Part shown: positions 2,836 through 26,440 of the stretch, in pieces | How the letters are laid out: each line of letters starts with the position of its first letter | Position numbering within the stretch: the stretch's first letter is position 1 | Origin: a virus | Lineage: Duplodnaviria; Caudoviricetes | Reading direction: 5' to 3' (one strand) | Virus record (IMG/VR): IMGVR_UViG_3300020463_000113 | Coordinates: 1 to 27,075 of that record | Length of the DNA: 27,075 bases | Program-made: the position numbers and the translations under genes | Notes under the pieces: generated by a model | What the model was told of the DNA's origin: nothing | Seen by the model: only the letters and a program-made list of their open reading frames with translations | The model's database searches: none

Positions 2836-2837
2836 GA

Positions 2838-8202: not shown

Positions 8203-9178
8203 AATATTTAGAAGAACAGTCAAAGATCGTAAACGTGGCAACAGTTACGAATTGCTTTACCACCTCAAAGAAGGCATCGAGGCGGCGGGAGACGAAGCGG
8301 TTATTGTGAATGAGAACAGATCAGGACCAACTGTAGAAGGTGAGATGATGCCAACTGCACCCATGGCGGCCATGTTTGGTTATGGGGGCGATAATCAGAT
8401 GCATCACACAAAAGGACGACGTAGAGAGCTGGCGAATAATTGTAGGAAAAAAAAGATCCCTCTGATAACCTTTGATGGCGGATTGCTATCTAGTTTTGGT
8501 AATGTGTCGACATCACCGGATCACCATTTCAGGGTATCCTTATACACACCCATGAACGATGGCAACTTCCTTTCAGACAACAGTCCCAGTGATCGTTGGG
8601 ACATGATGGTCAAAAAATTCAAAGTAAAATACGAACCGTGGCGTAAGTCTGATCAAAACGATCCCATAATATTTGTACTTCAGCCTAAAGACAATTGGAG
8701 CATGAACGAATTAGATCCTATAGATTGGTTCAAAGGAGTATACGATACACTGAGGCCGGCCACTGCTAGAAAATTTATTGTTCGACCACATCCTAATCAC
8801 GTGGCTTCCATTGTTGCACGTAAAAAAGAGTTTCCCGAAGATGTAGAACTCCAATTTACCCAGCAAAACTTTATAGGTGATCAAAAGAAATTTTACAGAT
8901 TTCATTTCCAAGAAGCCATTACAAATGCACATGCAGTTGTCACACACAACTCCACAGCCAGTGTAGACAGTTGCATAAGAGGTATACCAACGTTCTGTAC
9001 ATCAGACCTAGCTCTGTGTTGGGACGTGTGCAACAAAGATCTTAACGATATAGAAACACCAAAGATGCCGGACAGGACACAATGGGTGTACGATCTGGGA
9101 TATAAGTTGTGGAGCATAAAGGAGATAAGTGACGGCACAGTGTACAAAAGATTCAAACAAAAGTTAGGCTTACAATGA
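8192..9178 (+). CDS. KpsS/KpsC-like GT-B glycosyltransferase paralog 3
   Basis: IIFVLQPKD, IVRPHP, AVVTHNSTASVDSCIRGIP. Confidence 0.65.
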   Translation: MKVEIFRRTVKDRKRGNSYELLYHLKEGIEAAGDEAVIVNENRSGPTVEGEMMPTAPMAAMFGYGGDNQMHHTKGRRRELANNCRKKKIPLITFDGGLLSSFGNVSTSPDHHFRVSLYTPMNDGNFLSDNSPSDRWDMMVKKFKVKYEPWRKSDQNDPIIFVLQPKDNWSMNELDPIDWFKGVYDTLRPATARKFIVRPHPNHVASIVARKKEFPEDVELQFTQQNFIGDQKKFYRFHFQEAITNAHAVVTHNSTASVDSCIRGIPTFCTSDLALCWDVCNKDLNDIETPKMPDRTQWVYDLGYKLWSIKEISDGTVYKRFKQKLGLQ

Positions 9179-10095
9179 AATCATTATCGGTAATAACAAC
9201 TTTTCCACCTAACAGATGGACCGCCTACGCAAAGAGAATGCTGGAGAGTCATATCGAATTTTGGCCTGATAATGTAATCTTATATGCATACCACGAAGGA
9301 GACAGGCCTGACTTGAACCATCCAAAGATCAAGTTTATAAACATCGAGGATTCAAACCCCGAACTTGTAAAATTTAAACAGCGGCACAAAGACGACCCAG
9401 TGGCCAACGGCGAAGTGCAGGAAATAGAAGGAGGCGTGCGTAGAGATCCCAATGCAGGCAAGAACGACAAAGGCAAAGGTTCATACCTGTGGGACGCAGT
9501 AAGATTTGCACACAAGACTTTTGCTGTTGACCATGCCCTCAAAACACTAGACACAGATTACGTGCTGTGGCTTGATGCGGACACCTACACTTTCAGATCC
9601 ATAACCACGGAGTTTGTCACTGGTTTATTGCCCAAAGAAAAACTTGTAAATTATCTAGGCAGGGGCGGCAAGTATCCAGAATGTGGATGGGTATGTTATA
9701 ATAGGAATCATCCAAAGATTTCAGAATTCATGCAGTACTGGACAAAGTTGTACATCAATGACACCATATTCAGAGAACTAGAATGGCACGACAGTTACTT
9801 GTTCTGGCAGTGTGTAAAACGTATCGCACCCGACGACGGTGTGGACATAGGCAAAGGTGCAGGTGCCAAAGGACATCACGTGTTCATCAACAGTGTGCTA
9901 GGAGCATACGTGGATCACATGAAGGGCAAAAGAAAGGTGTTGGGTAAAAGTAGCAAGAGTGATCTGCGGGGAGATAGGAATGAAGACTACTGGAAGAACG
10001 TAGAGAACTATGATCCGTTTGGCGGAGTAAAGTTTGATCCAAAACAAAGAGAAGATATTGTGAGTAAGGTGGCCAAAGGCACACAAGGTAACTGA
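9175..10095 (+). CDS. GT-A fold glycosyltransferase
   Basis: AVRFAHKTFA, VLWLDADT (DxD), ECGW, EWHDSY, YVDHMKG. Confidence 0.75.
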   Translation: MKSLSVITTFPPNRWTAYAKRMLESHIEFWPDNVILYAYHEGDRPDLNHPKIKFINIEDSNPELVKFKQRHKDDPVANGEVQEIEGGVRRDPNAGKNDKGKGSYLWDAVRFAHKTFAVDHALKTLDTDYVLWLDADTYTFRSITTEFVTGLLPKEKLVNYLGRGGKYPECGWVCYNRNHPKISEFMQYWTKLYINDTIFRELEWHDSYLFWQCVKRIAPDDGVDIGKGAGAKGHHVFINSVLGAYVDHMKGKRKVLGKSSKSDLRGDRNEDYWKNVENYDPFGGVKFDPKQREDIVSKVAKGTQGN

Positions 10096-10964
10096 TGAAG
10101 ATCGAAGCATGGCCCATGCACGGCCCACTAAACAGCACAGACATATTTGCAAACTTTGTGAAATCCATGCAGGCAACTGGTGACGATGTACATGTCAACA
10201 AGGAGATCCGCGGCGACGTGGCAGTAATATGGAGTGTGCTATGGCAAGGCAAGATGCGGAACTACAAACAGATATGGGAAAGATACAGACAGGCAAATAA
10301 GCCAGTGATAGTGCTGGAAGTAGGTGGACTAAGAAGGAACAAGAGTTTTAAGGTTGCAATCAATGGTGTCAACAGGAAAGCGGATTTTGCCAACCAAGAC
10401 ACCGATGACACAAGATGGCCATTGTTCAATCATAGCCTGCAACCATGGAAACAGACAGGCGACAACATACTGCTACTAGGACAACACGATGCCTCTGAAC
10501 AATGGAACGGTATGCCTAGTATGAGTGTGTGGTTTCAACAGCAAATCAATGAAATAAGAAAACACACGACAAGACCAATTCAGATTAGGCCTCATCCAAG
10601 AAATCCAGTTGGTTTTGATCTGAACAAGTATGAAAATGTAAGCATAGCAAGTCCTGTAATGGACAGGGATACCATAGACGATACTAACTTTAAAGATACA
10701 CTTGAAAACGCTTGGGCAGTAATAAACCATAGTTCTAATCCTGCAATGGAAGCCGTAATTAAAGGCATACCTGTATTTGTATCCAAAGACAGTTTATGCT
10801 ATGACGTTGGCAATCATTCTCTGACAGACATCAACAATCCTAGAATGCCTGATAGGCAAGAGTGGGCCAATAAGTTGTCATACACAGAATGGTTCGAAGA
10901 CGAAATAGCACAAGGGTTGCCATGGAAAAGAATTAGAAACAGGATTGTGAAAAATTATATATGA
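10095..10964 (+). CDS. KpsS/KpsC-like GT-B glycosyltransferase paralog 4
   Basis: VLEVGGL, ILLLGQ, IRKHTTRPIQIRPHP, AWAVINHSSNPAMEAVIKGIPVF. Confidence 0.65.
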   Translation: MKIEAWPMHGPLNSTDIFANFVKSMQATGDDVHVNKEIRGDVAVIWSVLWQGKMRNYKQIWERYRQANKPVIVLEVGGLRRNKSFKVAINGVNRKADFANQDTDDTRWPLFNHSLQPWKQTGDNILLLGQHDASEQWNGMPSMSVWFQQQINEIRKHTTRPIQIRPHPRNPVGFDLNKYENVSIASPVMDRDTIDDTNFKDTLENAWAVINHSSNPAMEAVIKGIPVFVSKDSLCYDVGNHSLTDINNPRMPDRQEWANKLSYTEWFEDEIAQGLPWKRIRNRIVKNYI

Positions 10965-11689
10965 ACACGCCCTCAGAAATAAAATGGGAGAAGTACAAAG
11001 GAGAAACTGTTAACACAAATCTCATTATACGTGACGGCAAAAAGATACAAGAGACTGATTACTTCGAAGATAGAGTAAAGGCCATCCCAAGAGGTAATGC
11101 CTACGTGATTGGCAACGGTCCGTCTAGGAAAGGGTTCGATCTAAATAGATTGAAAGAGACCGGACAGACCTATGGATGTAATGCATTATACAGAGATTTC
11201 ATCCCTGATTTTATATTCTCCGTGGACACAAATATGTCAATGCAAATGATAGAGGACGCAGTTGGTTTGAAGACCATTCACTACGCACCGGCCTTGCAGG
11301 CAAACAGAAAAGAGAGCAGGGGCATGATACATCTCATACCAAACAATCCAAACTGGATATCAGGCAATGCGGCATTCTGGACAGCGGGTGTTCACGGACA
11401 CAAGAACATCTATCTAATCGGGTTTGACTTCAGAGAATATGGCAGGGGACAATTGAATAACATATACCAAGACACAGTCCACTATGGCGAACGCAACGAA
11501 GATAAAATATTCGATGGTTGGCTTAAACAGTTCAGAGACATGTTGAAGATGAGGCCGTACGTGAACTACACTGTGGTGCATGACAGTCCGCCAGACTTCA
11601 TGAATTATCTGCAGACAGGAACTGATCATGGCAATTCGAAAGTTATAAGTTACAAACAGTTTGAGGATACGGTGTTAGCCGGTTCTTGA
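10961..11689 (+). CDS. Maf/DUF115-like (sialyltransferase-type fold) transferase
   Basis: VIGNGPSR, YGCNALYRD, PDFIFSVD, SGNAA, IYLIGFDF. Confidence 0.7.
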   Translation: MNTPSEIKWEKYKGETVNTNLIIRDGKKIQETDYFEDRVKAIPRGNAYVIGNGPSRKGFDLNRLKETGQTYGCNALYRDFIPDFIFSVDTNMSMQMIEDAVGLKTIHYAPALQANRKESRGMIHLIPNNPNWISGNAAFWTAGVHGHKNIYLIGFDFREYGRGQLNNIYQDTVHYGERNEDKIFDGWLKQFRDMLKMRPYVNYTVVHDSPPDFMNYLQTGTDHGNSKVISYKQFEDTVLAGS

Positions 11690-13578: not shown

Positions 13579-15045
13579 ATGAGTAGTTGTAAATTAGTAA
13601 TAAAAGACGAGGTAAACGTAAAATTTGAGAACCTAAGTCTCGAATGGCGTAAGAGATTATCAAACAAATTCAAATACGAGATACCATATGCAAGACATCT
13701 ACCAGCAGTAAAACTCGGCAGATGGGATGGCAAAGTAAGTTTCTTTGGGTTGGGTGGAACAACATATCTAAATTTGGTCGATCAAATACTTCCCATACTG
13801 GACGAGGGTGGTGTGTACATAGATGTTGAGGACAAAAGGGAACAACACAACTTTGAATTCAACGCCGTAGACAAGAACTATCTGTCACACATCACATGGC
13901 CTGATAATCACCCGGCGGCAGGACAACCCATAGAATTGAGAGACTATCAAGTAGAAACAATAAACAAGTTCATAGAACATCCACAGAGTATACAAGAGAT
14001 TGCCACCGGTGCAGGTAAGACCATTATCACAGCGGCACTTTGTCAGTTGGTTGAACCATATGGTCGAACACTGACTATCGTACCAAACAAAAGTCTTGTC
14101 ACACAGACCGAAGAGGACTTCCTTGCTTGTAACTTAGATGTGGGTGTGTACTATGGTGACAGGAAAGAACTTGGTAGGTTCAACACTATAGCAACATGGC
14201 AGTCACTAAATGTCTTAGAAAAGAAAAGCAAAGACGAACACACAACAGACTTCCTGGAAGCAATACAAGGAATCAACACAGTAATCATAGACGAGGTACA
14301 CATGGCCAAGGCGGATGTTCTGAAGAGACTGCTCACAGGACCTTTTGCACACTGTGGTATACGTTGGGGACTGACAGGCACCGTTCCAAAAGCAGATTAC
14401 GAGTTTATGGGATTGAAATGCAGTATAGGTGAAGTATCGAACAGGATACAAGCAAGTGAACTCCAGGACAAGGGCGTGTTGGCAAACTGTCATGTGAATG
14501 TTTTACAGACACAGGATCATCCTCAATTTAAAACATACGGGGAGGAGTTGAAATGGCTGACCACTGACAAGACGAGAATGAAATGGGTGGCCAACACAAT
14601 AAAAGACATATCAAGTTCAGGTAACACACTAATACTTGTGGACAGGATATCCGCAGGAGAGATACTAGAAGAACAGATCAAAGATGCAGTGTTCGTATCT
14701 GGCTCAACCAAAAACACAGACAGGAAGGAACAATATGATGAAATATCTACTGCAACAAATAAAGTTATTATCGCCACATATGGAGTTGCCGCTGTTGGTA
14801 TTAACATTCCTAGGATTTTTAATCTTGTTCTCATAGAGCCTGGAAAGTCCTTTGTGAGGGTTATTCAGAGCATAGGACGTGGAATCAGGAAAGCAGAGGA
14901 CAAGGACAGTGTACAGATCTGGGATATTACCAGCAGTTGCAAGTTTGCAAAAAGACATCTGGGAGCAAGGAAAAAGTTTTACAAAGAGGCCAATTACCCG
15001 TATAATATAGAAAAGATAAATTATGAAAATCCTTACACTGGATAA
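13579..15045 (+). CDS. uvsW: UvsW-like SF2 DNA helicase
   Basis: LRDYQ, ATGAGKT, DEVH, GLTGT, GINIP, QSIGRGIR, IWDI...HLGARKKFY. Confidence 0.93.
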   Translation: MSSCKLVIKDEVNVKFENLSLEWRKRLSNKFKYEIPYARHLPAVKLGRWDGKVSFFGLGGTTYLNLVDQILPILDEGGVYIDVEDKREQHNFEFNAVDKNYLSHITWPDNHPAAGQPIELRDYQVETINKFIEHPQSIQEIATGAGKTIITAALCQLVEPYGRTLTIVPNKSLVTQTEEDFLACNLDVGVYYGDRKELGRFNTIATWQSLNVLEKKSKDEHTTDFLEAIQGINTVIIDEVHMAKADVLKRLLTGPFAHCGIRWGLTGTVPKADYEFMGLKCSIGEVSNRIQASELQDKGVLANCHVNVLQTQDHPQFKTYGEELKWLTTDKTRMKWVANTIKDISSSGNTLILVDRISAGEILEEQIKDAVFVSGSTKNTDRKEQYDEISTATNKVIIATYGVAAVGINIPRIFNLVLIEPGKSFVRVIQSIGRGIRKAEDKDSVQIWDITSSCKFAKRHLGARKKFYKEANYPYNIEKINYENPYTG

Positions 15046-15526
15046 CAGAACATACAAGTTAGAGAAAATACCAGAATGGGTAGATGAGAATCTAAGATTT
15101 GCTGTGTTAGATAATTCTGATCCTGCAAATCCTGATTTCTTCTACATACCTTTGATATTCTTAGAAAGTTTCAACGCACCCGCGGCTGTGCTGGAGATCG
15201 GCCCGCACAAGATAAAGATGCCACTAGACTGGAAGATGCTGATCGGCGAGGCAGGACAATCAGAGATGCATGTGTTACCAATCACCAGTCTCAATGATCG
15301 AGGATTTGATGCATTCACTTTCAACCCATTGTCCAGTCCAAAACCAGATTTCTATCCTATAGATGTGGTAGACATCTACACAGAAGTGAAATGGTACTTC
15401 CCAAAAATTAAAACAGGACAGATGTTGGCCGTTCCGTTGAACAATGGACCAAAACCCATGTGTGCTTACTTCGTCAAGGACATCTCGAGGCAATGCGAAC
15501 AGGTGGACTATGGCTCGGTCTGGTAG
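15023..15526 (+). CDS. Hypothetical beta-rich protein, possible degenerate Hint fold
   Basis: Overlaps the uvsW end; the strand pattern resembles Hint blocks without the catalytic residues. Confidence 0.55.
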   Translation: MKILTLDNRTYKLEKIPEWVDENLRFAVLDNSDPANPDFFYIPLIFLESFNAPAAVLEIGPHKIKMPLDWKMLIGEAGQSEMHVLPITSLNDRGFDAFTFNPLSSPKPDFYPIDVVDIYTEVKWYFPKIKTGQMLAVPLNNGPKPMCAYFVKDISRQCEQVDYGSVW

Positions 15527-15743
15527 GAAATCAATCACAATAGACGCACCGATAATGCTAACCAGCAATAAGATCGCTGTATGGATGGATGAGGACTGGA
15601 TGTATAATTTCTTTGACTTTATGAAAAAACACAAATTCCAATTTTCAGGTTTACAACACAAACACAATAAGATAAAATTAACATTTGTAACAGCAAAAGA
15701 ATGCACAATGTTCGCACTAAAATATGCCAGTAGAAAAAAATAG
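15510..15743 (+). CDS. Small hypothetical phage protein (77 aa)
   Basis: ATG at 15510 (MARSGRK), preceded by AGGTGG, is preferred to the ORF-track start at 15444; overlaps both neighbours. Confidence 0.6.
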   Translation: MARSGRKSITIDAPIMLTSNKIAVWMDEDWMYNFFDFMKKHKFQFSGLQHKHNKIKLTFVTAKECTMFALKYASRKK

Positions 15744-16176
15744 AAAGTTCTTTGATTTAAGGAACGGATTAAAAGCCGTTGACTTCAGGAACAAAGATTA
15801 TTTTGACAGGATAGACGACAAGGAAAAATCCTTGTATTCACCTTATATGCTGATGAGATACGTTTCCAACGTGTCATCCAAGGATCCTTTCTACGTGGAA
15901 CATTACATAGAAATGATCAACGAGTGTGTGAACAAGCACTGCTTTACATTGGGTAAACACAAGAAACTGTTATGGATACTGACTTCTATGTGTGGGGCAG
16001 AGATACAGCAGTTCCATCCATGGCTGAAACCCATGAAGAGAGTGCCAAACAAGAGTCTGAAGAAACTACAACAGATATACCCCACTTGGAAGGAATCGGA
16101 TCTAGAGACATTGGATAAAGTGATCACAGACAGAGAACTAGAGGAACTAATAGAAGCACATGGCATCGACAAATAA
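15724..16176 (+). CDS. Probable clamp-loader small subunit (T4 gp62-like)
   Basis: YSPYMLMRYVS resembles the gp62 YxPFxxNRxLS motif; HPWLK and the C-terminal ITDRELEELI helix pattern, size and replication context also fit. Confidence 0.55.
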   Translation: MPVEKNRKFFDLRNGLKAVDFRNKDYFDRIDDKEKSLYSPYMLMRYVSNVSSKDPFYVEHYIEMINECVNKHCFTLGKHKKLLWILTSMCGAEIQQFHPWLKPMKRVPNKSLKKLQQIYPTWKESDLETLDKVITDRELEELIEAHGIDK

Positions 16177-16843
16177 ATGTACATACTGTGGCAAGGAGTT
16201 TGCTAAAGAACGCACACTACAAGTACATCTGTGTGAGCCCAAAAGGAGATATCTGCAAAGAGATGAAAAATGGGTAGTGAATGCGTTCATGGTGTTTCAA
16301 AGATTCTATCAGATTCATCAGCACAATTCCAAAACAAAGACGTATGACGATTTCGTTAAGAGTTCTTACTACAATGCCTTTGTAAAGTTTGGCCGATTCA
16401 TCATGCATATTAATCCACTGTATCCAGAGAAGTACATAGAGTTTGTGTTGAGATCAAAAATTAAGTTGGATCATTGGTCCAGGGATGACTTGTACGAAAC
16501 GTATCTCATAGAAGCACTAAAATCAGAACCCGTGGAGGCCGCACTACAGAGGAGTATTGCAACAATGATGGACTGGGCAACAGAACAAAACGCACAATGG
16601 AGTGACTACTTCCGTTTGGTCAACACCAACAGGGCAGTGCAACACATACAGCAGGGAAAGATAAGTCCGTGGCTGTTGTTAGGTTGCAACGCAGGCAAAA
16701 GGATGTTAAAATCATTTAACGACGAACAATTACAAATGATTGAAAGATTTATTAATACTAGTTTCTGGCCAAGCAAGTTGAAGAGCTATCCTGCTGATCA
16801 CATGCTGGTACAGGACACAGCAAGGGAGGCCAAGATTGTCTAA
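16160..16843 (+). CDS. Zn-finger protein (CxxC...HxC) with helical domain
   Basis: CTYCGKEFAKERTLQVHLCE at the N-terminus. Confidence 0.7.
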   Translation: MASTNKCTYCGKEFAKERTLQVHLCEPKRRYLQRDEKWVVNAFMVFQRFYQIHQHNSKTKTYDDFVKSSYYNAFVKFGRFIMHINPLYPEKYIEFVLRSKIKLDHWSRDDLYETYLIEALKSEPVEAALQRSIATMMDWATEQNAQWSDYFRLVNTNRAVQHIQQGKISPWLLLGCNAGKRMLKSFNDEQLQMIERFINTSFWPSKLKSYPADHMLVQDTAREAKIV

Positions 16844-17069
16844 GATCGATCTAGAAGTGTCTGACAACTTACAATTTGAAGACGGCGACTGTGCTGTGAT
16901 AATCAAAGAGGATGGATCCATAGGAAGAGTGGTGATGCCAGAATTAAATAGGAAAATGATAACGTGCGAAGGATACAGGAAACTGTTAGATGTTCTAGAA
17001 GTATTGCAACCAGGTGCACGTGATAAAATGATAAATTATGCTGAAAAAGGCAAAGGAAGTATGCACTAA
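16836..17069 (+). CDS. Small hypothetical protein (77 aa)
   Basis: TTG start after GGAGG; its stop overlaps the next start (TAATG). Confidence 0.65.
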   Translation: MSKIDLEVSDNLQFEDGDCAVIIKEDGSIGRVVMPELNRKMITCEGYRKLLDVLEVLQPGARDKMINYAEKGKGSMH

Positions 17070-17659
17070 TGCCTGATGTAGACATAGACTTCTTTGACAG
17101 AGACAACACACTAAAACTTTTCAAGCACACACCTGCTTCAATGATCAAAGATGGTAAAAGCGAAAAACACAAAACAGGAGTATACTTCCACGCTGTACCA
17201 GAACATCCTGTAACGGGTCATGCATCATTGGATTACAAACAAGCAGAGGACAGAGGATATTTTAAGATAGACTGCCTAAACGTGAACATATACAAAGATG
17301 TGAAATCAGAACAGGAACTTGTGGAACTAATGATACAGGAACCAGACTGGGACATGCTAAAAGATCCAAAGATAGTGGAAAACCTTTTCCACCTAAATGG
17401 CCATTTCAATATAGTGTCCAAACTAGAACCACGTACCATAGAACAACTTGCGGCTGTACTAGCAATCATACGTCCTGCTAAAAGAGGGCTGATGTACAAA
17501 GAATGGACTGATATAATGAAGGAGGTATGGACAAAACCAACAGATGGCAGTTACTTCTTCAAGAAGTCACACGCTGTGGCATATGCACAGGCCATAGTAG
17601 TGCAAATGAATATACTCACAAAAGATAAATATAACTTTAGTGTACAACAAGACAAATAA
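17069..17659 (+). CDS. Minimal DnaE (Pol III alpha)-like catalytic fragment, 196 aa
   Basis: MPDVDIDF, KHKTGVYF, GYFKIDCL, LAIIRP, YFFKKSHAVAYA in DnaE order. Confidence 0.88.
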   Translation: MPDVDIDFFDRDNTLKLFKHTPASMIKDGKSEKHKTGVYFHAVPEHPVTGHASLDYKQAEDRGYFKIDCLNVNIYKDVKSEQELVELMIQEPDWDMLKDPKIVENLFHLNGHFNIVSKLEPRTIEQLAAVLAIIRPAKRGLMYKEWTDIMKEVWTKPTDGSYFFKKSHAVAYAQAIVVQMNILTKDKYNFSVQQDK

Positions 17660-17924
17660 AAAACTCACTAAAAAATCCAAACCCATTATCGTAGACCTAT
17701 CCAATGATGGACCGTTCTCGGTCGTGTCGTTGTCCAAATTCCTCACAGACTACTGGAAAACAAAAACAAAGCAAACGTGGAAAATACTGAACAAGGAGGA
17801 TCAACTTAATGCCCTCTGGATTAAAAATGAATTGCCCTACTGGCAACAGATTTGGGGCGAACGTGATATTAAAATTAGATGGGATCGCAGACAGCGATCT
17901 TTTTTTTTGACCCCTGTTAAGTAG
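17640..17924 (+). CDS. Hypothetical basic, Trp-rich protein (94 aa)
   Basis: GTG start 8 nt after GATAAATA; fills the gap between genes, but a terminator-like hairpin lies inside its 3' end. Confidence 0.5.
   Translation: MYNKTNKKLTKKSKPIIVDLSNDGPFSVVSLSKFLTDYWKTKTKQTWKILNKEDQLNALWIKNELPYWQQIWGERDIKIRWDRRQRSFFLTPVK
17881..17908 (+). terminator. Rho-independent terminator
   Basis: GATCGC-AGACA-GCGATC followed by T9, at the junction with a convergent gene. Confidence 0.7.
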
Positions 17925-18291
17925 GACGCCTGACTAATTGGATTGTCCTTCTCTTCACACGTTTCTTTGATATATCTGAAAGCCTCACAGTCGGACCGTG
18001 TATTATTTTTACATCCTTGGAGTTAAGTGTTATCAGTGTCGATCGAAAGTGTCTGAATTCGCCCTTAAGAAATATGTTGATTGGTAATTTACGATTTGAT
18101 TCGTGCCACCAAGTTTCACCAGATTTCAAAAACTGGGTTTTCTCCTCTGCCATTATTAACTTACCGTAGTCGTAGAAACTAATCACATTTACGTCTTCGT
18201 TCTGTATTATGCCCACATACTCCAGATCTCCCTTTTGGATGAGGCTCAAGAATGGGAATTTGTCTCTTAAAGTGTTAAAAATTTCATTCAT
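17917..18291 (-). CDS. Hypothetical phage protein (124 aa) with basic C-tail
   Basis: Start taken at MNEIFNTL (18291) to avoid overlap with the divergent 18324 gene; contains EYVGIIQN and WWHESNRKLPINIFL. Confidence 0.7.
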   Translation of the reverse strand: MNEIFNTLRDKFPFLSLIQKGDLEYVGIIQNEDVNVISFYDYGKLIMAEEKTQFLKSGETWWHESNRKLPINIFLKGEFRHFRSTLITLNSKDVKIIHGPTVRLSDISKKRVKRRTIQLVRRPT

Positions 18292-18299
18292 TCTATATC

Positions 18300-18317
18300 T
18301 ATAAATACTGTTAAATA
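18300..18317 (+). promoter_or_regulatory. T4-type late promoter(s)
   Basis: Perfect TATAAATA at 18300-18307 and a second TAAATA at 18312-18317, upstream of ATG 18324. Confidence 0.7.
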
Positions 18318-18323
18318 TGTACA

Positions 18324-19127
18324 ATGCAAACAGTTTCAAGATATTTACTATCACAGTTGGTAATAGCCCACGTAAGTGGTTATCACGGGAGGAATTCAAA
18401 AGTGTACGATAGACGTTTAACACTGCACAGAGGAGTATCAAACCCTATCTCATTCACGTTCAAGAACGAGGATCAGAAGGCACAGGACATCACATCCAAG
18501 ACTTACGAGTTCAATCTAATCGATTCCGAAAGCAAAAAAGCGGTTCTCACCAAGACATTAAGCATACTAGACGACGGATCAACTGTCAGCACAAAAGGTG
18601 ATGCAAGTTGCACTATTACAGAGGGTGACCTTTTACCACTTGATTCTAAATTCTACAATTTCTCCGTGCGAGAAGTAAAGTCAGATGGTAGCAGAGAGAT
18701 CACATATGCGGACACAGGATACGCGGCCGCGGGCACAGTTGAATTGTTAGATGGTGCATACCCAGACTTTGTACCGAGTACAAGTATTTCAACTTTCACA
18801 GCATCAGGTGGACCGTTAGCATTCACTTCTGGATCCATAGATGCAAGACCAGGCATCAACAACAACAAGGCTTTGCACACTATCGCAGTGTACACAAAAA
18901 ATTTCTCAGGAGCATTAAGAGTACAGGCCACTATGAGTGCGTCACCAAGCAACACAGATTATTTTGATATTACCATGGAAGGTGCAGGATCAACTGCAAA
19001 CTCTTTCTCGGATTCTACAACAGTATCCAACTTCAACTTCACAGGTGTTTACCACAGTGTAAGATTCAGTTGGGGCAACGACACCGGGAATACTGGTGTG
19101 ATTGACAAAATCCTATATAGGCAGTAA
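18324..19127 (+). CDS. Putative virion structural protein (two beta-sandwich domains, BppU N-terminal-like)
   Basis: Thr/Ser/Gly-rich all-beta pattern (LHRGVSNPISFTFKNEDQK...KGDASCTI...YNFSV); late promoter upstream. Confidence 0.55.
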   Translation: MQTVSRYLLSQLVIAHVSGYHGRNSKVYDRRLTLHRGVSNPISFTFKNEDQKAQDITSKTYEFNLIDSESKKAVLTKTLSILDDGSTVSTKGDASCTITEGDLLPLDSKFYNFSVREVKSDGSREITYADTGYAAAGTVELLDGAYPDFVPSTSISTFTASGGPLAFTSGSIDARPGINNNKALHTIAVYTKNFSGALRVQATMSASPSNTDYFDITMEGAGSTANSFSDSTTVSNFNFTGVYHSVRFSWGNDTGNTGVIDKILYRQ

Positions 19128-19140: not shown

Positions 19141-20154
19141 ATGAATCTTATACAGAATACAATTCTGACTAGCCTGCCTGCGAACAGAAAGAAGACCCCA
19201 AGCGGATGGATCAGTTTCAACGCACCCTGTTGTGTACACAATGGTGAGACCGCTGACAAGAAGAAACGTGGGGGACTGATGACCAGTGCAGATGGCACAG
19301 TGAGTTACCATTGTTTCAACTGTGGATTCAAGGCCAGTTATGTCATAGGACGTAAACTGACCTACAAGATGAGGCAGTTCATGAGTTACATTGGCATACC
19401 CGAGGACACCATACGTAAGTTGGCCATCGAGGCCATGCGTGAGGAGGAAGGTGACGTGAAGTATGAGAAGAAGAAATTTGTCTCATTCAAGAACAAGTCA
19501 CTGCCCAAGGGAACACACAAACTTGACGTGTGGCTAGAAAAGTATGTGGCAAACGAACTGTTTGAAGCACAATGGAAGAAGATAGATGGAGTGCTAAAAT
19601 ATCTCGAGAGCAGAGGTATGGGGGCCGACTGGTATGACTTCATGTACTCACCTGACAAGATATGGGACGTGAATCAGAGATTACTGATACCATTCTACTG
19701 GCGAGGAGATGTTGTTGGATTTACTGGTAGGATGTTTGAAGAGTCAAACGGAGTCAAGTATTACACAGATGTATGGCCTGGGTATGTGTTCAACATGGAT
19801 GTACAGGATTGGACTAGGAAATTTGTGATAGTGACTGAAGGGCCTTTTGATGCTATTGCCGTTTCTGGTGTTAGCATACTTGGATCAGAGATAAATGACA
19901 CACAGCGAGAGTTGATAGACGGACTTGGTAGACAGGTAATTGTTGTGCCAGACAGAGATGCACCGGGACAGAAATTGGTAGATCAAGCAACAGAATTTGG
20001 ATGGAGTGTTGCATTTCCAGAATGGGACAAAACGGTTGGCGATGTGGCGGATGCTGTGTTAAAATATGGTAGACTGTTTACAATACAATCGATACTGAAA
20101 ACAACAGAGTCTAGCAAACTTAAAATAGATTTGAAAAGGAAGATGTATGGCTGA
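19141..20154 (+). CDS. DNA primase (T4 gp61-like)
   Basis: Zn-binding NAPCC...YHCFNCG, YLESRG, IPF...GFTGR, TOPRIM TEGPFDA and PDRD. Confidence 0.92.
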   Translation: MNLIQNTILTSLPANRKKTPSGWISFNAPCCVHNGETADKKKRGGLMTSADGTVSYHCFNCGFKASYVIGRKLTYKMRQFMSYIGIPEDTIRKLAIEAMREEEGDVKYEKKKFVSFKNKSLPKGTHKLDVWLEKYVANELFEAQWKKIDGVLKYLESRGMGADWYDFMYSPDKIWDVNQRLLIPFYWRGDVVGFTGRMFEESNGVKYYTDVWPGYVFNMDVQDWTRKFVIVTEGPFDAIAVSGVSILGSEINDTQRELIDGLGRQVIVVPDRDAPGQKLVDQATEFGWSVAFPEWDKTVGDVADAVLKYGRLFTIQSILKTTESSKLKIDLKRKMYG

Positions 20155-21589
20155 ATACACATTTGATGTACAAAAACTTTATATAGAGATGCTTCTCGCT
20201 GACGCAGAATCGTTTGCTAGGGCACAGAACATATTCAAGCCTGAATCGTTTGATCGTAAACTGCAACCCATTGCAAAATTTGTCAAAGACTACATGGATG
20301 AATACAAAGTGATGCCAGAGGTTGAAATAGTAAATGCACAACATGATATAAAATTAAAATCGGCAAAGGATCTAGATCCAAGTCACTTCAATTGGTTGCT
20401 TGACGAATTTGAAACGTTCTCAAGACACAAAGCACTTGAACACGCAATACTACAATCGGCAGACATGTTGGAGAAGGGAGACTATGCTCCTGTTGAGGAC
20501 ATGGTCAAGGAAGCAGTGAATGTTGGACTGACCAGAGATCTCGGCACAGACTACTTCGAAGATCCAAAGGGAAGATTAGAAGCACTCAAAGACAACAACG
20601 GACAGATCAGCACAGGATGGCAAAACCTTGACAAGAAACTGTTTGGTGGTTTCAACAGAGGAGAGCTGAACATCTTTGCAGGGGGTTCGGGTGCAGGTAA
20701 GAGTTTGTTCTTACAGAATCTTGCAGTCAACTGGGCACAGGCCGGACTGAATGTTTGTTACATATCCTTTGAATTGAGTGAGCAACTTACAGCCATGAGA
20801 CTGGATGCGATGATGACGAATATCCCAACCAAGAAGGTGTTCCCTGAAATTGATAATGTTGAGATGAAGGTCAAGATGCTGGCCAAGAAGTCGGGTAATT
20901 TGCAGATCAAATACTTGCCAAGTGGTAGTAATGTGTTGGACGTGAGGACATACTTGAAAGAACTAGAACTTAAGAACAAGAAAAAAATAGACTGTATACT
21001 GATCGATTACTTGGATCTAATGATGCCTAAGAGCAAAAGGATAAGTCCTGCAGACTTGTTCATCAAAGACAAGTACGTGTCTGAAGAACTGAGAAACTTG
21101 GTCGTTGAGAAACAGTGTGTGCTGGCAACAGCATCACAGTTGAACAGAGCATCCGTTGAAGAGATAGAGTTTGATCACTCTCACATATCAGGTGGACTGT
21201 CTAAGATACAGACAGCAGATAACGTGATAGGCATATTCACATCCAGAGCAATGAAAGAACGTGGTAGATATCAGATACAGTTCATGAAGACCAGATCAAG
21301 TTCTGGGGTTGGACAAAAAGTTGATCTAGAGTTTGATGTGGACAGTTTGAGAATAAGAGACCTGGCAGATGATCCAGAATACAAACAGTTTGACAAACAG
21401 AGAAGCACAATATATGATTCACTTAAACAGACATCCAAAGTATCGCCATCAGAGGGCACACCAAAAGATGCAAGACCAGATGTGCCAGACCCTCGTAAGG
21501 GAGACACAATAGGTAAAGTCAAAGCCACCGTAGAGGGCGGCAAACTGAGACAACTGCTAAACGAACTGCACTCAGATGAAGAACAGTAA
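20147..21589 (+). CDS. Replicative DnaB-family helicase (T4 gp41-like)
   Basis: ISTGW, GGSGAGKS, ISFEL, IDYLDL, TASQLNR, MKTR. Confidence 0.95.
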   Translation: MAEYTFDVQKLYIEMLLADAESFARAQNIFKPESFDRKLQPIAKFVKDYMDEYKVMPEVEIVNAQHDIKLKSAKDLDPSHFNWLLDEFETFSRHKALEHAILQSADMLEKGDYAPVEDMVKEAVNVGLTRDLGTDYFEDPKGRLEALKDNNGQISTGWQNLDKKLFGGFNRGELNIFAGGSGAGKSLFLQNLAVNWAQAGLNVCYISFELSEQLTAMRLDAMMTNIPTKKVFPEIDNVEMKVKMLAKKSGNLQIKYLPSGSNVLDVRTYLKELELKNKKKIDCILIDYLDLMMPKSKRISPADLFIKDKYVSEELRNLVVEKQCVLATASQLNRASVEEIEFDHSHISGGLSKIQTADNVIGIFTSRAMKERGRYQIQFMKTRSSSGVGQKVDLEFDVDSLRIRDLADDPEYKQFDKQRSTIYDSLKQTSKVSPSEGTPKDARPDVPDPRKGDTIGKVKATVEGGKLRQLLNELHSDEEQ

Positions 21590-22256
21590 TGACATCTACT
21601 ACATATACGAGAAATTAAGTTCTCTTTACCCTCACTACTCAAACAAAAAACCCAAAGCAAAGATATATTCAAAAGCATACACTAGCCTTATAGGTGTGAT
21701 GTTGTCGGCACAAAGTCAAGACAAAAGGACAGCGGTAGCATGTAATCAACTGTTTGCATTGGCAGACACTCCTGAAGAGATGCTCAAACTGTCACAAGAA
21801 CAAATAATAGAGGCAATCAAACCAGCAGGACTGTTCAATGCAAAGAGTAAGAACATACTGGCAACAAGCAAAATGCTTCTTGAAAAGTTCAATGGCCAGG
21901 TCCCGAGAACACAAAAAGAATTAATGACACTCCCCGGAGTCGGTAGAAAGAGTTCAGACATTGTTATGAGATTTGTTTTTGGCGAACCACACATTGCCGT
22001 GGACACACACGTGTTTAGAATGTTATGGAGGCTGGGTTGGGCAGACAGCCTTGACGAGGGGAAGGCATCGATCACCGTGAACAGCACTACTCCTGGCAAA
22101 TACAAGTACGGTGCACATATGTGGTTGATAACCCACGCTAAAAAAGTTTGCAAATCTAGATCGCCCGTTTGTGATCCTTGTGTGATCAGTGCGGCTTGTG
22201 ACCGACGAGACATAGACATTCCAAAAAATAAACTTCGCCAAAATCTACAGTCATAA
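21576..22256 (+). CDS. nth: Endonuclease III (HhH-GPD glycosylase/AP lyase, 4Fe-4S)
   Basis: LSAQSQD, LPGVGRKS (catalytic Lys), AVDTHVFR (catalytic Asp), C-X6-C-X2-C-X5-C. Confidence 0.95.
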   Translation: MKNSNDIYYIYEKLSSLYPHYSNKKPKAKIYSKAYTSLIGVMLSAQSQDKRTAVACNQLFALADTPEEMLKLSQEQIIEAIKPAGLFNAKSKNILATSKMLLEKFNGQVPRTQKELMTLPGVGRKSSDIVMRFVFGEPHIAVDTHVFRMLWRLGWADSLDEGKASITVNSTTPGKYKYGAHMWLITHAKKVCKSRSPVCDPCVISAACDRRDIDIPKNKLRQNLQS

Positions 22257-22267
22257 TAATATACGTA

Positions 22268-22318
22268 GATAAATATACTTGCTCAAGGCAACACAGGCAA
22301 ATATAAAAGCATAGGCAA
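22268..22318 (+). promoter_or_regulatory. Late-type promoter and AGGCAA-repeat leader of the dnaE-like gene
   Basis: GATAAATA at 22268-22275; AGGCAA at 22286, 22295 and 22313. Confidence 0.45.
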
Positions 22319-24004
22319 ATGAAAGACAAACAACTGAACGACATAACAAGGCTGTACGATAGATTCATTAGGCAATGTCCAGGCACAGAAGAATACACGC
22401 AAAGACTCGCCGAGGAAACTCAGATCATCCTTCAACTACGTTTCGTAGACTACTTCATCCAAATATGTGACATCATAGCAATGACACGAGACATACCACA
22501 CATGACACGTGGTAGTGCTGGTTCATCATTGGTCTGTTACCTGTTGGGCATAACAGATGTGGACCCAGTGGAGTGGGACATACCCGTGGCAAGATTCCTC
22601 AACCCTAACAGGGACGACCTCCCTGACGTGGACATAGACTTCCCTCATCACAAGCAGAACGAAGTCATGCAGAGGATCTTCAAGAAGTGGCCCGGACGCA
22701 GTGCTAGGATATCTAATTACGTGCTCTATAAGGATAAATCAGCGAGGCGTGAAGCGGCCAAACGACTTGGGGTCAAAGGTAACCTACCCCGCAGGTTCAC
22801 ATACGATTCACTAGGCATCGACACCAAAGAGGCCAAACGTATCGAGAACAAACTGAAAGGCAAGAAGAGATGCATATCAAAACACTGCGGAGGAATACTA
22901 ATGTTTCAAAGACAATTACCAAAAAGCCTGTTCACGGCAGAGAATCAAATACTACTGGACAAAAACGAAGTGGAAGACCTAGAACACCTGAAGGTGGACA
23001 TTTTAGCCAATCGTGGTTTGTCACAACTCATCGAGATAGATCCAACAATGAAGTTGACGGACTACCCACAGGAAGATGCCGCTACCTCGGACCTTTTGTG
23101 TCGCGGAGACGTGTTGGGGGTGACCCAGGCCGAGAGTCCTGCCATGAGGAGACTGTTCAGGGCAATCAAACCAAACAGCGTTAAGGACTGTGTGTTCGGC
23201 ACTGCACTGATCCGGCCTGTTGCAGTGTCAGGACGTAAGAAGGCGACCATGTTCCACGACTGGAGCAAGGAACGTATGAGTGACACAATAGTGTACGAGG
23301 ATGATGCCATAGACAGGATATCTGAAGTGCTAGGCATAGACAAATATGAAGCAGACATGTATCGTAGAGCGTTTGCAAAGAAGAACGAAGAGAAGATAAT
23401 GCAGTTCATAACAAGACTAGGGGATCACCCACGCAAGGATGAGATAATCACAATGCTACAATCACTCTCCGGCTTTGGATTGTGTAGGGCACACGCAGTA
23501 AATTTAGGAAGACTTATATGGGCTCTGGCATATCAGAAAGCACACAACCCAGAGAAGTTCTGGAGATCTTGTCTCAAACACTGTCACGGATCATACAAAC
23601 GTTGGGTGTACAGGACAGAAGCGAAACGTGTTGGCATAGATGTTGTGACACCTAGCAAGTCTGACAAGTGGGACACTCCGGAATTCCAATACAGGAAATA
23701 CGGTTGGTGGAGCCAAGAGGACTTCATGCCAGGTATGTACGTGAGAGAACTGTATCTCGACAAGGTAGAGTTTGCAGGAATGATAGCCAACGGTAGAGTG
23801 TTCCGAGGCGACAAGGGAAGATACATAACATTTCTAACGTTAGGGATTGGCAACGGGCAGTATATAGATGTGACCATGAAGAAAGCATTCGCTTACAGTG
23901 ACTATGATGTAGTAAGGGGACAAGGCACGATAAGGCACAGTAATAATTCTGACTACGTAGAATGCTACGACTCAAAAGGTTTTCGATTAGAAAAATACCT
24001 GTAA
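22319..24004 (+). CDS. dnaE: Compact DnaE-like C-family DNA polymerase lacking the PHP domain (561 aa)
   Basis: FVDYF, RGSAGSSLVCYLLGITDVDP, RFLNP, PDVDIDF, KHCGG, KVDIL, QAESP, ALIRP, GFGLCRAHA, OB-fold-like C-terminus. Confidence 0.9.
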   Translation: MKDKQLNDITRLYDRFIRQCPGTEEYTQRLAEETQIILQLRFVDYFIQICDIIAMTRDIPHMTRGSAGSSLVCYLLGITDVDPVEWDIPVARFLNPNRDDLPDVDIDFPHHKQNEVMQRIFKKWPGRSARISNYVLYKDKSARREAAKRLGVKGNLPRRFTYDSLGIDTKEAKRIENKLKGKKRCISKHCGGILMFQRQLPKSLFTAENQILLDKNEVEDLEHLKVDILANRGLSQLIEIDPTMKLTDYPQEDAATSDLLCRGDVLGVTQAESPAMRRLFRAIKPNSVKDCVFGTALIRPVAVSGRKKATMFHDWSKERMSDTIVYEDDAIDRISEVLGIDKYEADMYRRAFAKKNEEKIMQFITRLGDHPRKDEIITMLQSLSGFGLCRAHAVNLGRLIWALAYQKAHNPEKFWRSCLKHCHGSYKRWVYRTEAKRVGIDVVTPSKSDKWDTPEFQYRKYGWWSQEDFMPGMYVRELYLDKVEFAGMIANGRVFRGDKGRYITFLTLGIGNGQYIDVTMKKAFAYSDYDVVRGQGTIRHSNNSDYVECYDSKGFRLEKYL

Positions 24005-24014: not shown

Positions 24015-24704
24015 ATGGCAAAAGCAATAAAAACAGTCAAGGAAAGATCACAGTTACAATCTCTTCTGTCAAAGACAAACAAAGGAAAGCACCTACTTGA
24101 ACAATGGATTGATCTAGATCCTATATACGTAGGTGATAAAAACTCTGCTCAATACGAACAAAGCATACACAGACATCTAATAGATTCAACTGAGAGAATT
24201 ACAATAGATGGCCATTGGTGTGAGTTTGGGGTAAGAGAGGGCAGGAGCCTCCGTTGGTTGATAGACAAATACCCTACACAAATTATACATGCGTTTGATT
24301 CATGGCAAGGATTACCAGAGCAATGGGATAACGGGACAGGCAATGTGGCTGACATGAGTTGTGATCCTCCTGCTGTGCCCACACACATTCAACTACACAA
24401 AGGATGGTTCAAAGACACTGTACCAACTTGGAAACAATACAACCAAGGGCCAATTGCTTTCTTGCACATGGATGCAGATATCTATTCATCTACCAAAGAG
24501 GTGTTGATGTCATTGAATGACCAAATTGTTGCTGGAACTATAATCACCTTTGATGAGTTCTGTAATTTTAGGCTATCAAGAAAAATGAGTAAGTGGCCTG
24601 ACCACGAGTTCCTGGCACTAGTGGATTGGCTTGACGAATGCCATAGACAAATTAAACCTATCAACAGGAACTGGGCCTATCAAGCAAGTTGTGTTGTCTT
24701 ATAA
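24015..24704 (+). CDS. TylF/MycF-like class I SAM O-methyltransferase
   Basis: EFGVREGRS, FDSWQGLPE, KGWFKDT, LHMDADIYSST, FDEF. Confidence 0.88.
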   Translation: MAKAIKTVKERSQLQSLLSKTNKGKHLLEQWIDLDPIYVGDKNSAQYEQSIHRHLIDSTERITIDGHWCEFGVREGRSLRWLIDKYPTQIIHAFDSWQGLPEQWDNGTGNVADMSCDPPAVPTHIQLHKGWFKDTVPTWKQYNQGPIAFLHMDADIYSSTKEVLMSLNDQIVAGTIITFDEFCNFRLSRKMSKWPDHEFLALVDWLDECHRQIKPINRNWAYQASCVVL

Positions 24705-25467
24705 ATTGACGTAACTCATCGGCCCATCTGTGATGACCTATCTCACTGGGATGACCGTCGTTAGCAGACTTTGTCCAACCGTTCTTTGCACAGAATTCAA
24801 AATGACTTTGCACATAATCTTTGTTCTGCACCTGTACCCTGTGCTCCGCTGATGACCTATTATCTTTCTGCATCTGAACGTTCTCCTTCACAAATTCGCT
24901 TGTTTCAAAGTTATAGAAATGCTTACGGTCTATTTGGTCTTTCAATAATTTTAGATCAGAACGTTGCGTCCCATTGACTTCTGTTTCAGGCAAATCATTT
25001 GTAAGTGCATGATAAAACACATAAGGAATATCATGGTACTTCAAAAAGTATTGTAGTGATAATATGTTGGTGTACAGTTTTACGGCACTAGATAATTCCA
25101 AGTCCATGTCCTTGTCACGCATAAAAAAATCGTGTTGCCACAGTTGCCAGGTGCTCCATTGGTAATCAAATTTCAAAAGTTCACCTTTGATACCACCTTG
25201 CTTTACTTTGGGTGTGACGTAATTGCTGACATAATCCCATCTGTATCCTGTGGTCCACCCCACGCTGACAAAAGTGTCTTTCAACTTGTCAGGATTCTTG
25301 AAGAACCAATGCATTGTGGTGTTGAGGATTCTGTCATTGCCCCTGCCACCTTTTGCCATGCTGATGGTAGGTTCATCGATGTTTAACAGCCTGCCTAACT
25401 GTTGATGACAACTGTTGAACTTTTTCCTTGTGCTGAAACTACAGCCGTTACTTAGATGATACCTCAT
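24661..25467 (-). CDS. SGNH/GDSL-like esterase or acyltransferase (paralog of 4865..5527)
   Basis: NGCSFS, MAKGGRGN, VGWT, DGHPSEIGH. Confidence 0.7.
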   Translation of the reverse strand: MRYHLSNGCSFSTRKKFNSCHQQLGRLLNIDEPTISMAKGGRGNDRILNTTMHWFFKNPDKLKDTFVSVGWTTGYRWDYVSNYVTPKVKQGGIKGELLKFDYQWSTWQLWQHDFFMRDKDMDLELSSAVKLYTNILSLQYFLKYHDIPYVFYHALTNDLPETEVNGTQRSDLKLLKDQIDRKHFYNFETSEFVKENVQMQKDNRSSAEHRVQVQNKDYVQSHFEFCAKNGWTKSANDGHPSEIGHHRWADELRQFIRQHNLLDRPSSC

Positions 25468-26366
25468 ATACTTTTACTTACGTGTTGCCAACACTCCCCT
25501 GATTCGAATTCGTCAATGCTCCATTGACAGTGTGCTATCTTGTTTGCCCAATTGGATTTATCTCCTGTGAAAGGATGTTCTACTTCACTTATTTCTTTAC
25601 TGCTTACTTCATACACCATGCTACCTGAATCACATGCTACGTTAGGTATTCCATTTATCACTGCATCAATGCCCGTGCCCGAACTATAAGTTACTGTGCA
25701 CCAGGCCTTCTTTAGTTGTTCTGCTATAGGAACGAACTCGGGCTTCCTGACATCTGCTTCTTGCCAGTGTACGTCCGCTATCCGTAATACTTTCTCTCGG
25801 AGTTTGCTATGTAGACCGGACTTCCTGTACAGCGGATGTGGCCTAATTATAATTTTCCTGTCCGTGTGATCCCTTATCTGATTGACTGTTTGCTCTGTCC
25901 ATGAGAATACATCCTGTCCCCTAAGACTTGCATCGCCTACTTTTTGCATACAAAGTAGGATGTAATCACCGTCCTGTTTCCAGGGCACATCAGGATCATA
26001 ACCATTACGGTCAAATACTTTTTTTGATCTGTCTCCCTCTATGTGTTCAAATCCCCATCTTGCATCATCCCAAAGGAACCCATTTACCCCGACCCTGAAT
26101 TCATTGTGAAACGCAGTGTCTATTGGCCTACCAATTAACTGTGTCTCTATTTGCACGTAAGGGATACCACTCCGGATTACCTTGCCCTTGCCTTGGTGTG
26201 CTGACCTACCTCTATCATCTTTGTAACTACCAAATATTACAGCACAGTCATAACCATTGGTATTACCACTATTGGTAATATTACCATTGCATCCTTTTGC
26301 AAACGAGTGCAAAACGTCTCTGTACTGCTTATGGTTGGCTGTGTCTTCTATTACTGCTACTCGCAT
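25464..26366 (-). CDS. KpsS/KpsC-like GT-B glycosyltransferase paralog 5
   Basis: ATG at 26366 (MRVAVIED) preferred; ILLCMQKVGD (QxxxD), IIIRPHP, VTYSSGTGIDAVINGIP. Confidence 0.68.
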   Translation of the reverse strand: MRVAVIEDTANHKQYRDVLHSFAKGCNGNITNSGNTNGYDCAVIFGSYKDDRGRSAHQGKGKVIRSGIPYVQIETQLIGRPIDTAFHNEFRVGVNGFLWDDARWGFEHIEGDRSKKVFDRNGYDPDVPWKQDGDYILLCMQKVGDASLRGQDVFSWTEQTVNQIRDHTDRKIIIRPHPLYRKSGLHSKLREKVLRIADVHWQEADVRKPEFVPIAEQLKKAWCTVTYSSGTGIDAVINGIPNVACDSGSMVYEVSSKEISEVEHPFTGDKSNWANKIAHCQWSIDEFESGECWQHVSKSI

Positions 26367-26440
26367 AGGGATATTTAAGGAGCGGAGCGAAAGCGTTAAA
26401 TTTACCAAAAATGCGTTTTTTAGAAATAACGCGGAGCGTT

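What the first reader, a model, noticed from the sequence alone, without database searches (positions are those of the whole stretch)
17069..17659. 196-aa mini-DnaE: candidate half of a split, intein-free, thumbless C-family polymerase
Seen: the ORF starts at MPDVDIDF, with TAATG coupling to the upstream stop, so the start looks genuine. It keeps all three catalytic Asp (DxD and KID) plus the finger motifs IRP and FKKSHAVAY. Only about 25 residues separate DIDF from KHxxGV. Established: bacterial DnaE is over 1000 aa, with PHP and the RGS triphosphate-binding motif before the DxD and the thumb between those two motifs. Inference: the RGS-bearing part is a separate gene elsewhere in the genome and the two associate without splicing, giving a minimal nucleotidyltransferase (primer synthesis/extension or gap filling) within a T4-like replisome. 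Compact DnaE-like genes may already be reported in other large phages; I cannot verify novelty.
Basis: partly seen in the sequence, partly recalled or inferred. Interest (0 to 1): 0.85.

Follow-up and report, generated by a model that had tools for sequence, protein, structure and literature searches.

The report
Half of split jumbo-phage mini-polymerase
This 196-residue gene of a marine giant phage is intact and strongly conserved, and it is the metal-binding half of a two-gene, stripped-down bacterial-type DNA polymerase described from sequence in 2021; it is predicted to pair with a partner found far away in a close relative's genome and likely makes only short stretches of DNA.

Summary
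ORF 17069-17659 is the C-terminal unit (PHROG 11778) of the split minimal Pol III alpha of group 2.2 jumbo phages (Iyer et al. 2021, PMC7824862); this scan also found it at least seven times on other DNA. It is no pseudogene: 195-196 aa in 79 of 80 close loci, dN/dS about 0.04. The predicted RGS-bearing partner is absent from this 7%-complete contig but lies 182 kb upstream in relative G129 (C-half 80.5% identical), which also encodes a family B polymerase. The pair co-folds at 0.91 against 0.00 for the best control, possibly by likeness to solved intact DnaE. Added here: the break falls where the rigid N-palm (E. coli 271-393) ends; Arg390 is Glu/Asp in 124 of 124 partners; Arg709/710 are deleted, while the steric-gate His, Lys553 and the template Arg-Pro are kept; the thumb's two strands likely survive. 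One natural fusion (375 aa, singleton) exists. Best reading: a slow, non-processive DNA polymerase accessory to PolB, likely extending primers at the primase-helicase. No activity test was found in print. A separate intact 561-aa DnaE lies 4.7 kb downstream.

The parts
17069..17659 (+). C-terminal (Mg/template-binding) unit of the split minimal Pol III alpha, 196 aa
   Evidence: PHROG 11778 E 2e-66; fold match to PolC/DnaE; PMC7824862
17067..17071 (+). TAATG stop-start overlap with the upstream 77-aa ORF
   Evidence: TAATG in 78 and TGATG in 2 of 80 close loci
17075..17089 (+). D3-x-D5-x-D7; D3/D5 correspond to E. coli Asp401/Asp403
   Evidence: D3 and D5 in 100 of 100 rows, D7 in 98; alignment to 399-420
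17129..17185 (+). Predicted beta-hairpin (residues 21-39) with His34; likely the two thumb strands (E. coli 429-438, 503-513, His511) with the helical thumb deleted
   Evidence: model strands E21-27 and E30-39; His34 in 99 of 100; E. coli boundaries from bioRxiv 10.64898/2026.06.29.735100; the mapping is my inference
17264..17272 (+). K66-I-D68 = Lys553 and catalytic Asp555
   Evidence: both in 100 of 100 rows; alignment
17471..17482 (+). R135-P136 (= Arg639-Pro640, templating-base contact) plus family-specific K138
   Evidence: 99, 100 and 92 of 100 rows; alignment; role in E. coli
17552..17572 (+). Y162-x-F164-K165-K166-S-H168 = Tyr754/Phe756/Asn757/Lys758/His760 pocket and steric gate
   Evidence: Y 75, F 87, K/R165 99, K/R166 97, H 99 of 100; alignment to 743-768; roles
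13579..15045 (+). UvsW-like helicase, conserved upstream neighbour
   Evidence: upstream in 14 of 15 distant loci
19141..20154 (+). DnaG-type primase, conserved downstream neighbour
   Evidence: PHROG 47; 1.7-7.6 kb downstream, same strand, in 15 of 15 distant loci
20147..21589 (+). DnaB/gp41-type replicative helicase
   Evidence: 14 of 15 loci
22319..24004 (+). Separate intact PHP-less DnaE, 561 aa; accessory, not the partner
   Evidence: PF07733 + PF17657; patchy in the lineage; 0 of 15 distant loci

Best explanation
The 196-aa protein is the aspartate-bearing half of a two-gene minimal C-family polymerase; it is predicted to dock without splicing onto a separately encoded 170-aa RGS-bearing half, and the roughly 370-residue pair likely works as a slow, non-processive, template-directed DNA polymerase that adds short DNA stretches for the phage's family B replicase, most likely at primers laid by the neighbouring primase-helicase. 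Shown: intact conserved gene, C-family fold, partner gene in a close relative, PolB in that genome, conserved neighbourhood. Predicted: the dimer and the position of GRGS beside the aspartate strand. Inferred: dNTP rather than rNTP use (His760 equivalent kept), template direction (Arg639-Pro640 and Tyr754 equivalents kept), low efficiency and processivity (Arg390, Arg396, Arg709/710, Lys714/715, thumb helices, ring and little fingers, clamp motif, OB and PHP lost). Odds: pairing 0.92; active short-patch DNA polymerase 0.7; primer hand-off as its main job about 0.4.
For: Halves co-occur: 7 of 8 records at least 90% complete that were picked by the N-half carry the C-half (the eighth also lacks the primase and the C-half's neighbour); 2 of 2; a fused query gives 188 places in 96 INPHARED records, 39 of 40 listed rows with two places, none joined. 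G129 holds both halves 182 kb apart, as does Atu_ph07, plus PolB and a clamp loader. Co-fold 0.91, best of 3 controls 0.00; that mark was reached by 116 of 157 solved and 2 of 215 mismatched pairs; runs agree in at least 97% of contacts; partner pLDDT 91. A natural N-C fusion exists (P0228). Residues reported essential in E. coli (R362, K553, K510-H511) are kept: R142 in 93 of 93, K66 in 100 of 100, H34 in 99 of 100. dN/dS median 0.041 in 75 of 80 loci. Primase 1.7-7.6 kb downstream in 15 of 15 loci. Precedent for primer hand-off: B. subtilis DnaE (PMC3664799, abstract).
Against: No activity data. Arg390 (R390A gives 27-fold lower efficiency) is Glu/Asp in 124 of 124 partners, and the Arg709/710-Lys714/715 segment is deleted. 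The co-fold may pass by likeness to solved intact DnaE. The window's own partner was not seen; G129 is a stand-in at 80.5% identity. The neighbourhood also holds UvsW (14 of 15) and a gene annotated as a virion protein, so it does not single out the primosome. T4-type PolB extends RNA primers unaided (recalled), so a hand-off enzyme is not obviously needed. The fusion is one sequence on a 2,415-base contig.
Confidence: 0.6

Rival explanations
1. The same heterodimer, but its job is gap filling, lesion bypass or D-loop extension in UvsX/UvsY/UvsW recombination and repair, not primer hand-off.
For: UvsW upstream in 14 of 15 loci, UvsY in 8, UvsX in 6; an open, low-processivity site suits short patches; Iyer et al. 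name repair as one option.
Against: Presence in nearly every complete genome and dN/dS 0.04 fit a core role; some members of this lineage carry a second DnaE next to an Nth glycosylase that could serve repair.
Confidence: 0.3
2. A repurposed Pol-beta-fold nucleotidyltransferase: de novo DNA priming, terminal transferase, or nucleotidylation of a non-DNA substrate.
For: Conserved rewiring of the triphosphate pocket: Arg390 to Glu/Asp, Asn757 to Lys/Arg (99 of 100), a new Lys138 (92 of 100), a terminal Lys/Arg on the partner; most duplex-gripping parts are gone.
Against: Primer-contact His511 and Lys553, template-contact Arg639-Pro640 and the steric gate are kept; a DnaG primase is encoded beside it.
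Confidence: 0.13
3. A catalytically dead or nearly dead pair that binds DNA ends or nucleotides, or interferes with the host replisome.
For: Loss of five basic residues near the dNTP.
Against: Three catalytic Asp and GRGS are invariant across rows of 29-57% identity.
Confidence: 0.07
4. The C-half pairs with the 561-aa DnaE next door or with host DnaE instead of a dedicated N-half.
For: The 561-aa DnaE is the only RGS-bearing match in the window and lies 4.7 kb away.
Against: It has its own DxD and KxD; it is found in 5 of 18 lineage loci with room and in 0 of 15 distant loci; G129 has the dedicated N-half and lacks it.
Confidence: 0.02
5. Pseudogene or misassembly of a full-length dnaE.
For: Short, with no Pfam hit.
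Against: 5,139 clusters, fixed length and dN/dS 0.04, 95 of 96 phage records cover at least 80%, contigs of two public runs match with 0-3 differences per piece and no indels or joints inside the gene.
Confidence: 0.005

Closest known systems
Split minimal DNA polymerase III alpha of group 2.2 jumbo phages, C-terminal unit (Iyer et al. 2021, PMC7824862; PHROG 11778, partner PHROG 11127)
   Same: [quoted passage not shown]
   Different: Uncultured marine lineage; some members also carry an intact 561-aa DnaE. The main text gives no residue-level account of the split point or of the Arg390 change in the parts I read; the supplement could not be read and may hold alignments that show them.
E. coli DnaE (Pol III alpha) catalytic core
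   Same: Palm fold, Asp401/403/555, GS motif, His511, Lys553, Arg639-Pro640, Tyr754, His760.
   Different: Chain broken between about 393 and 399; Asp401-His511 spacing 31 instead of 110; Arg639-Lys758 spacing 31 instead of 119; no PHP, clamp motif, OB or tau-binding domain.
Cyanobacterial split DnaE with trans-splicing intein (recalled, not from a call)
   Same: DnaE encoded by two distant genes.
   Different: That enzyme is spliced into a full-length chain; here there is no intein and both halves are minimal.
Bacillus subtilis DnaE as primer extender for PolC (PMC3664799, abstract)
   Same: Functional analogy: a second, C-family polymerase tied to primase and helicase that hands off to the main replicase.
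   Different: Full-length single chain; the analogy is untested for the phage pair.

Membership tests
Split minimal Pol III alpha of group 2.2 jumbo phages | Stand-alone C-terminal unit with the Mg-binding aspartates and template-binding subdomain | tested here: met
Split minimal Pol III alpha of group 2.2 jumbo phages | N-terminal NTP-binding unit on a distant gene | tested here: met
   met in close relative G129, 182 kb away; the window's own contig is 7% complete and lacks it
Split minimal Pol III alpha of group 2.2 jumbo phages | Family B polymerase and T4-like replisome in the same genome | tested here: met
   887-aa PolB, RFC loader and gp32-like SSB in G129; primase, helicase, UvsW/X/Y in the window
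Split minimal Pol III alpha of group 2.2 jumbo phages | No other Pol III domains in the genome | tested here: not met
   This window also encodes an intact 561-aa DnaE with a finger domain. It is an accessory gene, absent from the 196.6 kb of G129; the feature describes the genomes Iyer et al. surveyed, not the protein itself
Split minimal Pol III alpha of group 2.2 jumbo phages | The halves reconstitute an active enzyme (predicted by the authors) | not testable with these tools
   co-fold 0.91 against 0.00 supports binding only
C-family polymerase core | Pol-beta-like palm with three catalytic Asp and GS motif | tested here: met
   across the two chains
Replicative DnaE (full length) | Single chain with PHP, thumb, long fingers, clamp motif and OB | tested here: not met
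   196 aa; no NCBIfam DnaE hit; spacings
Replicative DnaE (full length) | Arg390/Arg396 and Arg709/Arg710 around the dNTP | tested here: not met
Intein-split DnaE | Intein halves at the break | tested here: not met
   111 of 124 N-halves stop 33 residues after GRGS, 124 of 124 within 39; C-halves start 1-17 residues before DxDxD; no intein family in Pfam

The most novel reading that the evidence does not exclude
The roughly 370-residue pair is the smallest working C-family polymerase and serves as a dedicated RNA-primer extender between a DnaG primase and a family B replicase, a bacterial-fold counterpart of Pol alpha in a T4-like replisome; the chain break sits at the palm hinge, so that assembly of the two halves gates activity, and a rewired pocket (terminal Lys/Arg, Lys138, Lys165) replaces the lost arginines.
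Probability: 0.3. Interest if true: 0.72.

Novelty: new member of a known kind. Interest (0 to 1): 0.3.

Why it matters
The family is described, so this gene is no discovery. It stays worth a bench test: a very abundant marine gene (one 90% cluster has 2,534 members) that may define the minimal parts of a C-family polymerase and explain why a whole jumbo-phage group keeps a second polymerase beside PolB. The cognate pair in G129, the residue map and the natural fusion make that test easy to design.

Tried and rejected
Single-sequence searches of PDB, Pfam and NCBIfam: nothing; Foldseek gave no row at E <= 0.001, though ranks 1-18 were all C-family. N-half search in lineage contigs: 3 of 25, 4 of 16 and 8 of 40 records rang; only G129 was a true N-half; the rest were weak hits (E about 1e-7 to 1e-5), most in frames of about 565 aa like the intact DnaE, and I did not inspect each. 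G032 (543 kb, linear) lacks the C-half but also the primase and the neighbouring gene, so it is uninformative. More fusions: relatives of P0228 not found in viral or metagenome contigs; three pattern scans gave 2, 0 and 2 hits, all in unrelated sequence (only AGA and CGT arginine codons tried); the 'longer' search gave 4 ordinary DnaE proteins. P0228 folded without an alignment is unusable (pLDDT 35.7). Overprinted +2 gene (lead e1-8231041): the window has a 71-codon stop-free stretch without a start codon, and 47 of 68 alleles have a stretch of 60 or more (null 27%), but the stops fall at different places, no run over 19 codons is open in all 68, and stop depletion (0.76) lies within that of six neighbours (0.65-1.13), so no conserved hidden gene here. 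Two RNA runs hold contigs of relatives over the gene, but contigs cannot show transcription. Literature searches for an activity test found none; a 2026 review, PMC13282480, has no occurrence of the five terms sought; one search returned no papers.

Full report
Observation. The ORF is as described: 196 aa, TAATG overlap with the upstream gene, DxDxD at 3-7, KH at 33-34, KID at 66-68, IRP at 134-136, FKKSHAVAY at 164-172. The window is a linear virus contig estimated 7% complete; the best public holders of the stretch are marine metagenomes. It encodes UvsX, UvsY, UvsW, a DnaG-type primase and a DnaB-type helicase.

It is a real, conserved gene. 5,139 of 5,168 candidate clusters of 107-343 aa match; 103 of the top 120 are 196 aa. 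In 80 close viral loci the ORF is 196 aa in 72, 195 in 7 and 189 in 1; dN/dS against the window, computed for 75 of 80 (5 dropped for gaps, length or saturation), has median 0.041, range 0.012-0.064, at median dS 1.29. Contigs of two public runs match the gene with 0-3 differences per piece, no indels and no joint inside it (one of these runs may be the source sample, and X1 has a short uncovered stretch at 17404-17439). Among 50,697 phage records 96 match, 95 over at least 80% of the length, mostly large myoviruses such as Atu_ph07, PA5oct, XacN1, RaK2 and PBECO4, with the same gene order in the two examined.

It is already described. Iyer et al. 2021 (PMC7824862; I read the abstract, section 3.4.1, the figure legends and passages) report in group 2.2 jumbo phages a minimal Pol III alpha split into distant genes for an N-terminal NTP-binding and a C-terminal Mg- and template-binding unit, beside a family B polymerase, and suggest strand synthesis or repair. 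Its supplement could not be read and may already show some of the residue-level points below. PMC9123017 (passages) finds PF07733 in 51.9% of one marine jumbo cluster. Seven earlier notes of this scan reached the same reading on other DNA; I had reached it before looking.

The partner. PHROG 11127 is the N-half; it is in Atu_ph07 and RaK2, 182 and 33 kb from the C-half. Its profile maps to E. coli alpha 261-392, E 2.3e-6. Of 33 records picked by the N-half, 16 have the C-half, 7 of 8 among those at least 90% complete; the eighth lacks the whole block. Of 31 further records 4 have it, 2 of 2 complete (one has the length and N-half of the Atu_ph07 record, so it is not independent). In the window's lineage 81 record searches (25, 16 and 40, a few records twice) gave one true N-half, in G129, the longest contig (196.6 kb): C-half 80.5% identical at 4565-5149, same gene order, N-half of 173 aa at 187,287-187,790 beside a GroES-like gene. 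G129 also encodes an 887-aa PolB, a clamp loader and a gp32-like SSB.

Do they pair? The G129 N-half (93-row alignment) and the window's protein (residues 1-189, 100 rows) scored 0.91 in three runs, best of 3 controls 0.00; that mark was reached by 116 of 157 solved and 2 of 215 mismatched pairs (counts hold roughly, my alignments); runs agree in at least 97% of contacts, partner pLDDT 91. N residues 134-147, which include GRGS, touch C residues 6-8. Intact DnaE structures are solved, so the pass may reflect likeness. Independent of the model, 1 of the 150 listed representatives, P0228, is an in-frame fusion: PHROG 11127 at 8-180, a 10-residue linker, PHROG 11778 at 190-374. It keeps the acidic residue at 390 and the short thumb, and its N-part falls among split N-halves on a long branch of a weak tree (97 columns, bootstrap unsettled), so it looks like a re-fusion. 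It is a singleton on a 2,415-base contig and no second case was found; it could be an assembly artefact.

Anatomy against E. coli alpha. Roles and boundaries come from bioRxiv 10.64898/2026.06.29.735100 (passages and one section). Kept: R362-G363-S364 (93 of 93 N rows), Asp401/403/555 and Lys553 (100 of 100 C rows), His511 (99), Arg639-Pro640 (99, 100), Tyr754 (75, Phe 7), His760, the steric gate (99) (alignments). Lost: Arg390 is Glu in 109 and Asp in 15 of 124 N-halves (near-duplicates included), and 111 of 124 end three residues later in FL[KR]; Arg396 falls in the gap; 642-742, with Arg709/710 and Lys714/715, shrinks to about 15 residues. Asp401 to His511 is 110 residues in E. coli and 28-37 here (60 of 88 rows measurable). 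The model shows a hairpin at 21-39 that carries His34, which I read as the two minor-groove thumb strands; the helical thumb is gone. New basic residues are K138 (92 of 100) and K/R165 (99). The paper finds palm 271-393 rigid while the part bearing Asp401/403 moves on DNA binding; the phage N-half ends at about 393, so the split falls at that hinge. That this matters for function is inference.

How it likely works. The two chains assemble into a palm with a nascent-base-pair pocket but little grip on duplex and no clamp or proofreading contacts of the DnaE kind. That gives a slow, distributive, templated DNA polymerase. The C-half gene lies 1.7-7.6 kb upstream of the primase in 15 of 15 distant loci (13 viral records plus Atu_ph07 and RaK2), with the helicase in 14 and UvsW upstream in 14. 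I favour short extension of primers for PolB, as B. subtilis DnaE does for PolC (PMC3664799, abstract only), at about 0.4, over recombination or repair synthesis at about 0.3. Gene order cannot separate them.

The second DnaE. At 22319-24004 lies an intact 561-aa DnaE without PHP, behind an Nth-type glycosylase. It keeps RGS, RFLNPNR, DxD, KxD and a double Arg before AFAKK. It occurs in 5 of 18 lineage loci with over 2.5 kb of room past the helicase and in G091 and G092, not in G129 or G090, nor at full length in 33 other records. It groups with intact DnaE in the weak tree. It is an accessory cassette, not the partner.

Verdict. A new marine member of a described family; activity untested as far as searches show. 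Interest 0.3.

Noticed in passing
window 21576-24004 (+): Accessory cassette: Nth-type HhH-GPD glycosylase plus an intact, PHP-less 561-aa DnaE with shortened thumb and fingers (spacings 86 and 91 against 110 and 119 in E. coli). Cluster of 591 members; best phage-record hit 37.6% over the full length; best NCBIfam score to the error-prone DnaE model, far below its cut-off. A very compact intact C-family polymerase, possibly for repair; worth its own look.
   Followed up: partly
protein P0228 (375 aa, ENA contig of 2,415 bases): Natural in-frame fusion of the N- and C-halves with a 10-residue linker; singleton, DNA not retrievable here.
   Followed up: partly
window 17450-17452: The Ala128 codon is the same in all 68 distinct alleles of the lineage although dS is near saturation; Pro2 and Ser167 codons are nearly fixed too. 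Possibly an overlapping DNA signal; unexplained.
   Followed up: no
window 17917-18441 (-), 16160-16843, 15724-16176, 15023-15526: Genes of unknown function (PHROG 11637, 11058, 11758, 11279) flank the C-half in 15, 14, 12 and 14 of 15 distant loci; candidates for further subunits or partners.
   Followed up: partly
G129 182,657-184,915 (L402): A D-2-hydroxyacid dehydrogenase-family gene (398 aa) and a UvdE UV endonuclease lie between the N-half and the clamp loader.
   Followed up: no
window 2161-11689 and 24015-26408: Long runs of glycosyltransferase- and methyltransferase-like ORFs interrupt the recombination-replication block (only 24015-24704 was scanned; the other labels are my reading of the sequences).
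   Followed up: no
G032 (543 kb, linear, rated 100% complete): Has the N-half but no detectable C-half, primase or neighbouring gene, so it probably lacks that block.
   Followed up: partly
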